From assembly GCF_056712565.1 (NCBI RefSeq), contig NZ_CM160072.1: DNA of 64,000 bases; one strand, written 5' to 3'. The position numbers are program-made. Every line of letters starts with the position of its first letter. The stretch's first letter is position 1. Of this stretch, positions 30,001-33,000 are shown in pieces.

Positions 30001-33000
30001 CGCCGATCCGGAGCAGGAGGTGATCAGCCGCTGGCGCATCGAGCAGTGCAGCGAACTGAGCGCGGTGAGTGCCTCCTTTGTACTGTCCACGCCGACGGAA
30101 ACGGATGGCGCTGTTTTTCCGGGGCGTATCATGCTGGCCAACACCTGCACCTGGACCTATCGCGGTGATGAGTGCGGTTATCACGGTCCGGCAGTCGCGG
30201 ATGAATATGACCAGCCGACGTCCGATATCACGAAGGATAAATGCAGCAAATGCCTGAGCGGCTGTAAGTTTCGCAATAACGTCGGCAACTTTGGCGGCTT
30301 CCTTTCCATTAACAAACTTTCGCAGTAATCCCATGACAGAGACAGAATCAGCGATTCTGGCGCACGCCCGGCGATGTGCGCCAGCGGAGTCGTGCGGCTT
30401 CGTGGTAAGCACGCCGGAGGGGGAAAGATATTTCCCCTGCGTGAATATCTCCGGTGAGCCGGAGGCGTATTTCCGGATGGCTCCGGAGGACTGGCTGCAG
30501 GCAGAGATGCAGGGTGAGATTGTGGCGCTGGTCCACAGCCACCCCGGTGGTCTGCCCTGGCTGAGTGAGGCTGACCGGCGGCTGCAGGTGCAGAGCGATT
30601 TGCCGTGGTGGCTGGTCTGCCGGGGGGCGATTCACAAGTTCCGCTGTGTGCCGCATCTCACCGGGCGGCGCTTTGAGTACGGGGTGACAGACTGTTACAC
30701 ACTGTTCCGGGATGCTTACCATCTGGCGGGGATTGAGATGCCGGATTTTCATCGCGGGGATGACTGGTGGCGTCACGGTCAGAATCTCTATCTTGACAAT
30801 ATGGAGGCTACTGGTTTTTACCGTGTCGCACTGACAGAGGCGCAGCCGGGCGATGTGCTGCTGTGCTGTTTTGGTTCATCGGTGCCGAATCACGCCGCCA
30901 TTTACTGCGGCGACGGTGAGCTGCTGCACCATATTCCTGAACAACTGAGTAAACGAGAGAGGTATACCGACAAATGGCAGCGACGCACACACTCCCTCTG
31001 GCGTCACCGGGAATGGCACGCATCTGCCTTTACGGGGATTTGCAACGATTTGGCCGCCGCATCGACCTTCGTGTGAAAACGGGGGCTGAAGCCATCCGGG
31101 CACTGGCCACACAGCTCCCGGCGTTTCGTCAGAAACTGAGCGATGGCTGGTATCAGGTACGGATTGCCGGGCGGGATGCAGGAGAAACCGAATTATCATC
31201 CCGTCTTAATGAGCCGCTGGCAAATGGTGCCGTGATCCACATCGTGCCGCGTCTTGCGGGAGCAAAAAGTGGCGGTGTGTTTCAGGCGGTGCTGGGTGCG
31301 GCGTTGATTGCTACGGCAATCTGGATGCCGGGGATCAGTATCGCTTTCAGTGACATTCTCTTTTCAATGGGTGCGGCGATGACGCTTGGTGGTGTGGCGC
31401 AGATGCTGGCACCGAAAGCCAGAACTCCCCGTACACAGACAACGGATAACGGCAAACAGAACACCTATTTCTCCTCACTGGATAACATGGTTGCCCAGGG
31501 CAATGTCCTGCCTGTTCTGTACGGTGAAATGCGCGTGGGGTCACGTGTGGCATCTCAGGAGATCAGCACGGCAGATGAAGGGGATGGTGGTCAGGTTGTG
31601 GTAATTGGGCGGTAATATTATTTTACTCATGTTCTAACTAATTTAATATTTATATCGAACACTGATAATTATTCTATTGGTTAGCTATATGAACAAAACG
31701 ATTTTATTCTGCACGATTATTGCCTTAACAGGATGTAAATCTTTGGATTACGTAAAATCCGGAAAACCTGTAATGGAAGGTAATTCATTAAAAAATATTG
31801 ATGAATTGTCAGGCTGCATATCCAGACAATGGGCTGGTAATGGAACACCTATAACATCCCTTCCTATTGAGAATGGGGTAAGCCTTTTAGTTCCACAGGC
31901 TATGGGGGGATATGATGTTGTGCTTGATATCAAAAAAGCAGGAAATGGCAGTAGTTTTACTCTTTATGAACGTGTACCAGCATTAACGCCAAAAATTTTT
32001 GCTGATAGTGTTAATGCATGTAAATAATAGTTAATCCTGTCGTAACTCATGAGCCGCCTTTTGGGCGGCTTTGTTGTTTATGGAGTGTGAGGAATGGGTA
32101 AAGGAAGCAGTAAGGGGCATACCCCGCGCGAAGCGAGGGACAACCTGAAGTCCACGCAGCTGCTGAGTGTGATCGATGCCATCAGCGAAGGGCCGGTTGA
32201 AGGTCCGGTGGACGGATTAAAAAGCGTGCTGCTGAACAGTACGCCGGTGCTGGACAGTGAGGGGAATACCAATATATCCGGTGTCACGGTGGTGTTCCGG
32301 GCAGGTGAGCAGGAGCAGACACCGCCGGAGGGATTTGAATCCTCCGGCTCCGAGACGGTGCTGGGTACGGAAGTGAAATATGACACGCCGATCACCCGGA
32401 CCATCACGTCGGCAAACATCGACCGTCTGCGCTTTACCTTCGGTGTGCAGGCACTGGTGGAAACCACCTCAAAGGGGGACAGGAATCCGTCGGAAGTCCG
32501 CCTGCTGGTTCAGATCCAGCGTAACGGTGGCTGGGTGACGGAAAAAGACATCACCATTAAGGGCAAAACCACCTCGCAGTATCTGGCCTCGGTGGTGGTG
32601 GATAACCTGCCGCCGCGCCCGTTTAATATCCGGATGCGCAGGATGACGCCGGACAGCACCACAGACCAGCTGCAGAACAAAACGCTCTGGTCGTCATACA
32701 CCGAAATCATCGATGTGAAACAGTGCTACCCGAACACGGCACTGGTCGGCGTGCAGGTGGACTCGGAGCAGTTCGGCAGCCAGCAGGTGAGCCGTAATTA
32801 TCATCTGCGCGGGCGTATTCTGCAGGTGCCGTCGAACTATAACCCGCAGACGCGGCAATACAGCGGTATCTGGGACGGGACGTTTAAGCCAGCATACAGC
32901 AACAACATGGCCTGGTGTCTGTGGGATATGCTGACCCATCCGCGCTACGGCATGGGGAAGCGTCTCGGTGCGGCGGATGTGGACAAATGGGCGCTGTATG

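What the first reader, a model, noticed from the sequence alone, without database searches (positions are those of the whole stretch)
31620..32080. AT-rich lipoprotein moron between tail genes I and J
Lambda has J directly after I. Here an AT-rich ~460 bp insert encodes a 112-aa protein with a lipoprotein signal peptide (MNKTILFCTIIALTGC) followed by its own hairpin terminator (32049-32078). Small phage lipoproteins inserted in tail regions include superinfection-exclusion factors that block the phage's own outer-membrane receptor (Cor/Llp-type); this is a candidate of that class, or an envelope-targeted lysogenic-conversion factor.
Basis: partly seen in the sequence, partly recalled or inferred. 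Interest (0 to 1): 0.45.

Follow-up and report, generated by a model that had tools for sequence, protein, structure and literature searches.

The report
Prophage outer-membrane lipoprotein moron, function unknown
A small AT-rich gene for a probable outer-membrane lipoprotein sits between tail genes I and J of an E. coli prophage; it is real cargo from a widespread uncharacterised phage family, is not related to the known receptor-blocking lipoproteins, and may instead block phage DNA entry after adsorption.

Summary
Window 31689-32027 (+) encodes a 112-aa protein with the lipobox LTGC, inside a 435-bp AT-rich insert (GC 0.34; flanks about 0.56) between tail genes I and J. A hairpin with a T-run follows at 32051-32071.

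The window matches the ompW-site prophage of ExPEC strain UTI89. The insert occurs in 337 of 5426 complete E. coli genomes and in none of 110 lambda-like phage records sharing the I-J flanks.

The protein belongs to PHROG 914 (unknown function). It has no Pfam, NCBIfam, PADLOC or PDB sequence match. With signal peptides removed, it shows no similarity to Cor.

Relatives occupy three slots: I/J here, K/I in most lineages, and T/tape-measure in Enterobacter, where HK97 carries gp15. All are followed by a similar hairpin. Lambda, which lacks the gene, has a homologous hairpin, so it is slot punctuation rather than the gene's own terminator.

One allele pairs with at least four J receptor-binding domain types, and mEpX2 and Fraca carry a family member plus a true Cor.

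Best guess (unproven): an exclusion factor acting after adsorption, on tail-tip ejection proteins gpI or gpH.

The parts
30974..31615 (+). Tail tip gene I (left neighbour of the insert). The product has the central hydrophobic stretch typical of gpI.
   Evidence: ORF list. 75% identical to the part of lambda I held in locus L053. Annotated as tail assembly protein in UTI89. Role of gpI in the virion from PMC11101478 and PMC12617516.
31616..31688 (+). AT-rich spacer (GC 0.205) upstream of the ORF; a possible but unproven promoter region. The first ~16 nt align loosely with lambda's I-J spacer.
   Evidence: No promoter reached the consensus threshold. Alignment with lambda.
31689..32027 (+). Lipoprotein ORF: 112 aa, mature form 97 aa, about 10.3 kDa. 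Member of PHROG 914.
   Evidence: (E = 7e-33). AF2 model with pLDDT 90.9.
31689..31736 (+). Signal peptide with lipobox LTGC (Cys16). Lys at +2 predicts sorting to the outer membrane.
   Evidence: Sequence. Family-wide lipobox conservation, no Asp at +2. The sorting rule is established knowledge of the Lol pathway.
32051..32079 (+). GC-rich hairpin plus T-rich tail, directly before the J ribosome-binding site. It is terminator-like slot punctuation shared with lambda.
   Evidence: Homologous hairpin in lambda. An equivalent hairpin follows every phage-borne family member examined. Hairpins also occur at the D/E, E, J/lom and lom/stf junctions of this prophage.
32094..35573 (+). Tail tip / host-specificity gene J (right neighbour). 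The last ~160 aa, the receptor-binding part, are not of the lambda type.
   Evidence: 58% identity to lambda over the last 233 aa, lower in the final ~110 aa. The same C-terminus occurs in VT1-Sakai, PPompW and phage 204576, which lack the lipoprotein.

Best explanation
The insert is a moron-type cargo cassette in one of the classical cargo slots of lambdoid tail operons.

What the protein probably is. [quoted passage not shown] There a compact, probably disulfide-stapled alpha/beta domain of about 10 kDa faces the periplasm. Shown: the gene, the lipobox, the base composition, the presence/absence polymorphism, the mobility between slots, and a confident fold model. Inferred: actual lipidation, outer-membrane location and the disulfide.

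When it is probably expressed. The gene is co-oriented with the late operon, so it should be made late in lytic growth by antiterminated read-through. The AT-rich upstream spacer and the downstream hairpin fit additional expression from the repressed prophage, with the hairpin shielding J. This is inferred; no promoter was demonstrated.

What it most likely does. My preferred function is superinfection exclusion at the envelope, acting after receptor recognition. The lipoprotein would interfere with the tail-tip proteins that enter the envelope: the gpI plug, whose hydrophobic helices are proposed to insert into the outer membrane, and/or the tape measure protein gpH. This would resemble HK97 gp15 or the Gram-positive lipoprotein Ltp rather than the receptor maskers Cor and Llp. 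This step is inference from genomic association only.

How the confidence breaks down: about 0.85 that it is an accessory outer-membrane lipoprotein moron; about 0.5 that it is some kind of phage-exclusion factor; about 0.3-0.35 that it acts on the ejection step rather than on a receptor.
For: Cargo status:
- It is absent from 110 lambda-like phage records that share the flanks at 90-96% identity.
- It is present in 337 of 5426 complete E. coli genomes.
- GC is 0.34 against 0.56 in the flanks. Enterobacterial relatives are about 10 GC points below their flanks.
- Homologues (25-60% identity) lie at I/J, K/I or T/H. Others lie on a plasmid and in non-prophage chromosome.
- HK97's annotation places other morons, each with a terminator, at T/H (gp15) and I/J (gp22, gp23). 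At K/I it annotates only a terminator.
- Other fillers occupy the I-J slot in PPompW and phage 204576.

Lipoprotein: lipobox in 50/50 members, no Asp at +2, two conserved Cys. The AF2 model has pLDDT 90.9.

A hairpin with a T-run follows the gene in all slots and hosts examined.

Against a receptor-matched role, and for an ejection-step role:
- The identical allele occurs with at least four J C-terminal types.
- It co-occurs with true Cor in mEpX2 and Fraca.
- All three slots flank the genes for the ejected proteins H and I. The gene is immediately next to I in every phage-borne clade examined except the Enterobacter one.
- Pseudomonas phage phiAH14a has a second lipoprotein-gpI pair beside its repressor region, and its satellite phiAH14b carries gpI plus a lipoprotein of another family.
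- gpI is a virion plug with predicted transmembrane helices thought to enter the outer membrane (PMC11101478, PMC12617516).
- HK97 gp15, in the T/H slot, is a proven exclusion factor that blocks DNA entry (PMC3594210).
- The family occurs in phages of environmental Pseudomonas as well as of pathogens. That favours a phage-centred function.
Against: - No experiment and no homology to any characterised protein supports any function. Pfam, NCBIfam, PADLOC and PDB sequence searches were empty.
- Adjacency to I may simply reflect where cargo is tolerated, since HK97 has unrelated cargo in the same slots.
- Pairwise-distance correlation of the lipoprotein with I (r = 0.86) is only slightly above that with K (0.78) and is confounded by clade structure.
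- No promoter was detected. In the K-x-I lineages only about 30 bp separate K from the gene. Expression in lysogens is therefore unproven.
- The hairpin exists without the gene.
- Decoupling from the J receptor-binding domain could reflect recent recombination.
- The phiAH14a/b pairs are a single lineage.
Confidence: 0.35

Rival explanations
1. Receptor masking of the Cor/Llp/Rtp45 type. The lipoprotein binds the periplasmic face of the outer-membrane protein used as receptor by this phage. It changes the receptor's surface loops so that lysogens, and debris from lysed cells, no longer adsorb the phage.
For: It is the same kind of molecule: a small, probably disulfide-bonded phage lipoprotein encoded in the tail region. 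Cor, Llp and Rtp45 all work this way (PMC12685063; PMC3594210). Placement in the late operon would suit protection of progeny from debris. A conserved terminator-like hairpin follows it, as after cor in mEpX2.
Against: - There is no sequence or fold relation to Cor, Llp or Rtp45.
- The mature domain is 97 aa, against about 60 aa for those proteins.
- The same allele pairs with at least four different J C-terminal domains.
- The same J C-terminus occurs without it.
- It co-occurs with Cor in mEpX2 and Fraca.
- Relatives at about 50% identity sit in phages with very different J proteins of 1100-3400 aa.
Confidence: 0.15
2. A host-fitness or virulence conversion factor, in the manner of Bor/Iss (serum resistance). 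It could also be an envelope-maintenance lipoprotein, or a periplasmic inhibitor that benefits the lysogen independently of phages.
For: The E. coli allele is concentrated in ExPEC/APEC genomes such as UTI89, S88, APEC O1, IHE3034 and NU14. It neighbours lom, a known moron with host-interaction activity. Non-phage chromosomal and plasmid homologues exist, one next to ecotin in Shimwellia. The closest fold match is Flpp3, a Francisella lipoprotein.
Against: No homology to Bor or any other Pfam family. The family is spread over phages of non-pathogenic and environmental hosts, including an Antarctic Pseudomonas. It is persistently placed inside the tail-tip module rather than in the usual virulence-cargo regions.
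Confidence: 0.2
3. A phage-functional component: a structural or assembly factor of the tail tip that works with gpI/gpK and is needed for infectivity in the lineages that carry it.
For: The K-x-I arrangement recurs in Escherichia, Klebsiella and Pseudomonas phages whose family members are only 25-40% identical to the window protein. There are only about 30-60 bp of spacer in the late operon. gpI-lipoprotein pairs occur outside tail operons in phiAH14a/b.
Against: An exported lipoprotein cannot join cytoplasmic tail assembly. The gene is absent from lambda, HK97, PPompW and 204576, which have homologous K, I and J. Its position is not syntenic, with three slots. Frameshifted copies exist in otherwise intact modules (L041, L042). 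Its base composition is deviant.
Confidence: 0.05

Closest known systems
HK97 gp15 moron (superinfection exclusion; Juhala et al. 2000; Cumby et al. 2012, as summarised in PMC3594210)
   Same: It is a small envelope-targeted protein encoded by extra DNA wedged between tail genes and followed by a terminator just before the next tail gene. The Enterobacter homologues of the window protein occupy exactly gp15's slot, between T and the tape measure gene. gp15 blocks DNA entry without masking the receptor, which is the mode I favour here.
   Different: gp15 is a 62-aa inner-membrane, YebO-like protein without a lipobox. There is no sequence relation. The window gene sits at I/J, where HK97 has the unrelated gp22 and gp23.
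Cor (phi80, N15, HK022, mEp167; PHROG 1119)
   Same: A phage outer-membrane lipoprotein with conserved cysteines, including a penultimate C-terminal Cys-Lys. It is encoded in the tail region with a terminator and expressed by lysogens.
   Different: Mature Cor is 61 aa against 97 aa here. No similarity remains once signal peptides are removed. The PHROG family is different. Cor lies downstream of J, not beside I. Both genes coexist in mEpX2 and Fraca.
Llp (T5) and Rtp45 (Rtp): exclusion lipoproteins with solved receptor complexes (PMC9586334, PMC12685063)
   Same: Periplasm-facing outer-membrane lipoproteins with disulfides, encoded next to host-recognition genes.
Ltp of Streptococcus thermophilus phage TP-J34 (PMC3952083)
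   Same: A prophage lipoprotein that excludes phages. From my own knowledge (not read here), it acts after adsorption by targeting the tape measure protein, which would be the nearest mechanistic analogue to the preferred model.
   Different: It comes from a Gram-positive host, has a different architecture, and its gene is in the lysogeny module. Homology was not tested here.
Lambda Bor / Iss and Lom
   Same: Lysogen-expressed outer-membrane morons of lambdoid prophages. lom lies just downstream of J in this window and is also bracketed by hairpins.
   Different: There is no Pfam Lambda_Bor match. Bor sits near the lysis genes. Lom is a beta-barrel protein, not a lipoprotein.
Flpp3 / DUF3568 and other small TBP-like or helix-grip lipoprotein domains (e.g. 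the BamC N-terminal domain)
   Different: Only 6-10% identity. This is a fold-level resemblance that gives no function.

Membership tests
Bacterial lipoprotein (signal peptidase II substrate) | N-terminal signal peptide ending in a lipobox [LVI][ASTVI][GAS]C | tested here: met
   The sequence MNKTILFCTIIALTGC matches, with a Lys n-region, a hydrophobic core and L-T-G-C. The lipobox is conserved in 50/50 family members.
Bacterial lipoprotein (signal peptidase II substrate) | Actual acylation and Lol-dependent outer-membrane localisation | not testable with these tools
   Only inferred from Lys at +2 and Ser at +3, and from the absence of Asp at +2 in all 49 members scored.
PHROG 914 (uncharacterised phage lipoprotein family) | Full-length profile match | tested here: met
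   E = 7.3e-33 over residues 1-112. Relatives from mEpX2, phiAH14a, Klebsiella and Enterobacter hit the same PHROG.
Moron (sense of Juhala et al. 2000) | Extra gene between genes that are adjacent in related phages | tested here: met
   I and J are contiguous in lambda and in 110 lambda-like records. The I-J slot holds other cargo in HK97, PPompW and phage 204576.
Moron (sense of Juhala et al. 2000) | Base composition different from the surrounding genes | tested here: met
   GC 0.336 against 0.558 and 0.569 in the flanks, within the lowest 0.3% of windows. The pattern is the same in enterobacterial relatives.
Moron (sense of Juhala et al. 2000) | Own promoter | tested here: inconclusive
   No site reached the consensus threshold on the + strand. 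The spacer is 73 bp at 20% GC, with only sub-threshold hexamer pairs by eye.
Moron (sense of Juhala et al. 2000) | Terminator downstream | tested here: met
   A hairpin plus T-run lies at 32051-32079 and is conserved after all relatives. It also exists at empty junctions, so it is not specific to the gene.
Moron (sense of Juhala et al. 2000) | Expression from the repressed prophage | not testable with these tools
   This needs RNA-seq, 5' RACE or reporter fusions in a lysogen.
Cor superinfection-exclusion lipoproteins (PHROG 1119) | Sequence homology to Cor | tested here: not met
   The window protein has no PHROG 1119 hit at E <= 1. The hhalign match was confined to the signal peptide and fell to 1.5% probability on mature sequences.
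Cor superinfection-exclusion lipoproteins (PHROG 1119) | Blocks FhuA-dependent adsorption | not testable with these tools
   This needs plating and adsorption assays. Co-occurrence with a real Cor in mEpX2 and Fraca argues against redundancy.
Llp / Rtp45 exclusion lipoproteins | Sequence or fold similarity to the solved proteins | tested here: not met
Lambda Bor / Iss | Pfam Lambda_Bor domain | tested here: not met
   No Pfam match, even at E <= 10.
Structural tail-tip component | Conserved presence and syntenic position in related tail modules | tested here: not met
   It is absent from lambda, HK97, PPompW and 204576. It occupies three different slots.

The most novel reading that the evidence does not exclude
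PHROG 914 lipoproteins may form a previously unrecognised class of envelope-level phage-exclusion factors that is genetically coupled to the tail-tip plug protein gpI rather than to the receptor-binding domain. Anchored at the periplasmic face of the outer membrane, they would stop gpI (and/or tape-measure) insertion and channel formation after normal adsorption, whichever receptor the incoming phage uses. The lipoprotein-gpI pairs outside tail operons would then be mobile two-gene versions of the same system. One such pair lies beside the repressor region of Pseudomonas phage phiAH14a. A comparable pair, with a lipoprotein of another family (phrog_890), lies in its satellite phiAH14b.
Probability: 0.2. 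Interest if true: 0.65.

Novelty: new variant of a known kind. Interest (0 to 1): 0.4.

Why it matters
How lambda-like phages cross the outer membrane after binding their receptor is still open. gpI has only recently been seen as a tail-tip plug that may insert into the membrane. If this lipoprotein family acts on that step, it would give a natural inhibitor with which to dissect it. It would also add a receptor-independent exclusion mechanism relevant to phage therapy against ExPEC, Klebsiella and Pseudomonas lysogens. If instead it is a fitness factor, it is prophage cargo found in about 6% of complete E. coli genomes, and among the best-matching genomes listed mostly in ExPEC/APEC strains. 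Either way the gene is cheap to test. As it stands it is an uncharacterised but fairly ordinary moron in a known moron slot.

Tried and rejected
- Family searches. Pfam was run on the single sequence and on 50 members. NCBIfam gave only a sub-threshold VirB7 signal-peptide hit. PADLOC was empty, and PDB sequence searches with both sequence and profile gave nothing usable.
- Apparent links to Cor and phrog_890. The hhalign hits (93% and 85% probability) were rejected because they vanish when signal peptides are removed.
- Locus search with the 50-member alignment failed because it has no conserved stretch.
- Mirror-tree test. Correlating lipoprotein distances with I and with K gave r = 0.86 and 0.78. 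This is confounded by clade structure and was not used as evidence.
- A 7-bp direct repeat, ACTCATG, flanks the insert (31625-31631 and 32045-32051). A repeat this long or longer turns up in 10% of shuffles, so it is not significant.
- No remnant of the lipoprotein gene was found in the I-J or K-I spacers of lambda, HK97 or PPompW. The idea that lambda's hairpin is a deletion scar is therefore unsupported.
- Literature searches for the accession, for 'phage-related lipoprotein' and for lipoprotein exclusion factors acting on the tape measure protein in Gram-negatives found nothing on this family. A Salmonella prophage transcriptome paper had nothing relevant.
- Hits to large repetitive proteins (residues 23-58 of the query) were set aside as probably compositional.
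Full report
**1. What is there**

The window matches, at the loci checked, a lambdoid prophage of uropathogenic E. coli UTI89 inserted beside a truncated ompW next to the trp operon. Its tail module runs V-G-T-H-M-L-K-I, then the gene in question, then J, lom and stf.

The ORF at 31689-32027 (+) encodes 112 aa beginning MNKTILFCTIIALTGC. RefSeq annotates it as hypothetical protein WP_001332187.1.

The segment 31616-32050 has GC 0.336, against 0.558 for the late operon upstream and 0.569 for J. Only 0.3% of equally long windows in the 64 kb are as AT-rich.

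A 9-bp GC-rich stem with a T-rich tail lies at 32051-32079. The 66-nt region around it folds at -21.5 kcal/mol, z = -3.0.

**2. It is cargo, not a tail part**

A 901-bp query spanning the junction hit 110 phage records, including lambda. In every case only the two flanks matched (50% coverage, 90-96% identity). In those phages I and J are separated only by a short spacer.

The insert itself is present at 95% identity or more in 337 of 5426 complete E. coli genomes. Among the 30 best matches listed, most are ExPEC/APEC strains such as UTI89, S88, APEC O1, IHE3034 and NU14.

In the phage collection, tblastn found only distant relatives in Fraca and LMessi.

Prophages with the same J C-terminus lack the gene: PPompW, VT1-Sakai and phage 204576. 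Where examined (PPompW, 204576), the I-J junction carries other, unrelated filler. HK97's own annotation lists the morons gp22 and gp23 at I/J, gp15 at T/H, and terminators at T/H, K/I and I/J. The I-J junction is thus a classical polymorphic cargo slot.

**3. The family**

The protein matches PHROG 914, of unknown function, over its full length (E = 7e-33). It matches nothing in Pfam, NCBIfam, PADLOC or the PDB by sequence.

An exhaustive search of 1.84 billion representative proteins found 59 relatives. Most are lipoproteins of about 112 aa from Proteobacteria. AFDB50 lists the same family in Citrobacter, Salmonella, Serratia, Pseudomonas, Bordetella, Pandoraea, Glaesserella and others, always unnamed.

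In a 50-sequence alignment the invariant residues are the lipid-attachment Cys16, Cys43 and Cys111. Pro27, Trp48 and Gly63 are nearly invariant. The lipobox is present in all 50, none has Asp at +2, and 44 of 49 have exactly two cysteines in the mature part. I infer an outer-membrane, periplasm-facing lipoprotein with one disulfide linking the first helix to the C-terminus.

**4. Where relatives sit**

I scored HMMs for L, K, I, J and the lipoprotein on about 100 loci from public assemblies, IMG/VR contigs and deposited phage genomes. Three slots appear.
- I-x-J occurs only in the E. coli clade of the window, which is 99-100% identical.
- K-x-I is the dominant arrangement. It is found in the mEpX2/HK140/Fraca clade, in Klebsiella, in two further enterobacterial clades and in Pseudomonas.
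- T-x-H occurs in Enterobacter, exactly where HK97 carries gp15.

Other members lie on a Rep3 plasmid as a tandem pair, and in ordinary chromosome. In Shimwellia the gene sits beside ecotin.

In enterobacterial phages the gene is about 10 GC points below its flanks. In Pseudomonas phages and in the chromosomal copies it is not. This is the behaviour of a mobile accessory gene, probably captured from bacterial genomes.

**5. The hairpin**

In every phage context examined, the gene is followed by a GC-stem hairpin plus a T-run directly before the ribosome-binding site of the next tail gene. This holds across hosts and slots.

The hairpin is not the gene's private terminator, for four reasons.
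- Lambda has a homologous hairpin at its empty I-J junction.
- mEpX2 has one after the lipoprotein gene and another at I-J.
- HK97 has them at all three slots.
- In this prophage similar hairpins follow D, E, J and lom.

They are punctuation of the late operon at cargo slots. They fit the moron design, in which a terminator shields downstream tail genes in the lysogen and is read through by antiterminated polymerase. They do not prove it.

No consensus promoter was found in the 73-bp, 20% GC spacer. In K-x-I phages only about 30 bp separate K from the gene. Late expression by read-through is therefore the only expression that follows from the layout. Expression in lysogens is an inference.

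**6. Testing the Cor/Llp idea**

Homology: not met.
- The window protein hits only PHROG 914, whereas Cor of mEpX2 hits PHROG 1119.
- An hhalign match to Cor covered only the signal peptide plus about 14 following residues. It dropped to 1.5% probability on mature sequences.
- No exclusion-lipoprotein structure appears in the PDB searches.

Logic of an own-receptor blocker: disfavoured.
- Among IMG/VR contigs with a 99-100% identical lipoprotein, the last ~160 aa of J fall into at least four types. One is window-like (93-100%), one about 43% identical, one about 62%, and one has no detectable similarity.
- mEpX2 and Fraca encode a family member at K-x-I and also a bona fide Cor downstream of J. 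The two lipoproteins are therefore not interchangeable.

**7. What it may do instead**

All three slots flank the genes for the proteins that leave the tail tip on infection, H and I. In every phage-borne clade examined except the Enterobacter one, the gene is the immediate neighbour of I.

Recent structures show gpI as a trimeric plug in the lambda tail tip. Its two hydrophobic helices are proposed to insert into the outer membrane when the tip opens. gpH then forms the periplasmic channel (PMC11101478, PMC12617516). A lipoprotein on the periplasmic face of the outer membrane is well placed to interfere with exactly this step.

Known precedents for exclusion after adsorption exist. One is HK97 gp15, in the T/H slot (PMC3594210). 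Another, from my own knowledge rather than from a paper read here, is the Gram-positive lipoprotein Ltp, which targets the tape measure protein.

A striking side observation comes from Pseudomonas phage phiAH14a. It has a full-length family member (115 aa, E = 3e-27 to the family profile) immediately upstream of a second copy of gpI. That copy is 79% identical to the tail gpI, and the differences look concentrated in the hydrophobic segment (by eye, not quantified). The pair is co-oriented with, and about 2.5 kb downstream of, a gene annotated 'transcription repressor', far from the tail operon. Its satellite phiAH14b carries a gpI copy followed by a lipoprotein of another family, PHROG 890.

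I therefore favour an exclusion factor acting on the ejection step. This rests only on genomic association. The slots also hold unrelated cargo, and a distance-correlation test was uninformative.

**8. Rivals**

- Receptor masking remains possible, for example of a secondary or conserved outer-membrane protein.
- A host-fitness role in the manner of Bor cannot be excluded, given that most of the best-matching genomes listed are ExPEC/APEC strains. The spread of the family to phages of environmental hosts argues against a virulence-specific function.
- A structural or assembly role is unlikely. The protein is exported, it is dispensable in close relatives, and it is sometimes frameshifted (L041, L042).

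**9. Verdict**

This is a real, well-delimited moron in a known moron slot. It encodes a probable outer-membrane lipoprotein of a widespread but uncharacterised family that is not related to Cor, Llp, Rtp45 or Bor. The class assignment is not supported, and the proposed mechanism is less likely than a post-adsorption block.

The finding is moderately interesting. The kind of element is ordinary, the function is unknown, and the hypothesis linking it to gpI is cheap to test.

Noticed in passing
L060:3462-4448 (Pseudomonas phage phiAH14a, NC_074659.1 about 13998-14984) and L062:10997-12061 (satellite phiAH14b): phiAH14a has a PHROG 914 lipoprotein (115 aa; the deposited CDS is N-terminally truncated) directly upstream of a second gpI copy, co-oriented with and ~2.5 kb downstream of an annotated transcription repressor gene, far from the tail operon. 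The satellite phiAH14b carries gpI followed by a PHROG 890 lipoprotein. The three gpI copies are 71-79% identical and appear to differ mainly in the hydrophobic helices (by eye).
   Followed up: partly
window 32051-32079; L055:765-790 (lambda I-J spacer); L059:3852-3869 and 4510-4527 (mEpX2): Lambdoid tail operons carry very similar 'GC hairpin - TTTTTATGG' elements at the K/I, I/J and T/H junctions, whether or not cargo is present. These repeated elements could be the recombination points that move cargo between slots.
   Followed up: partly
L054:2759-3100 (PPompW) and L113:2286-2525 (phage 204576): Related prophages with the same J C-terminus carry a different I-J filler. In 204576 (~250 bp) it has a possible 41-aa ORF (MKINVKELFLLLGQKNTNAVKLYAPQSVCENVKIFRNFIPS) and its own hairpin plus T-run before J; PPompW's is ~340 bp and related in sequence.
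   Followed up: no
L112:7014-7334 (HK97 K-I spacer): The HK97 K-I gap holds an unannotated small ORF with a transmembrane-like sequence (MYTVGFGWIFVGIFIGLILWFFINRASVRANR), followed by the annotated terminator. It may be another small membrane-protein moron.
   Followed up: no
L056:904-1740 (Rep3-type plasmid contig from a metagenome run): Two tandem paralogues of the lipoprotein family (122 aa and 115 aa) lie on a small plasmid that also carries a toxin-antitoxin pair, a resolvase and ParA.
   Followed up: no
L011:6001-6946 (Shimwellia blattae chromosome): A 38%-identical, non-prophage copy of the lipoprotein gene lies immediately upstream of ecotin, the periplasmic protease inhibitor, with host-like GC. 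It may resemble the bacterial ancestor of the phage genes.
   Followed up: no
P0023, P0028, P0030 and similar: Very large repetitive proteins (1000-3700 aa) match residues ~23-58 of the lipoprotein in 4-10 stretches each, at 35-40% identity. This is probably compositional or repeat-driven but remains unexplained.
   Followed up: no
window 3626-5211, 14951-15736, 41426-42536, 43176-43686, 61826-62436: These are other strongly AT-rich islands (GC <= 0.38) in the window. The first two lie inside the prophage: two hypothetical genes in the early region, and the DUF1398/ynfO genes on the minus strand between the lysis and terminase genes. They may be further cargo.
   Followed up: no
window 10870-11119 and 40138-40806: The prophage carries three tRNA genes (Ile, Arg, Arg) downstream of a DNA methyltransferase gene. 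It also has a minus-strand SAM-dependent methyltransferase gene just after the tail fibre assembly gene.
   Followed up: no
L041:5001-5335 and L042:5001-5338: Some E. coli copies of the lipoprotein gene are split by frameshifts while the surrounding tail genes look intact. The gene therefore appears dispensable for the phage.
   Followed up: no
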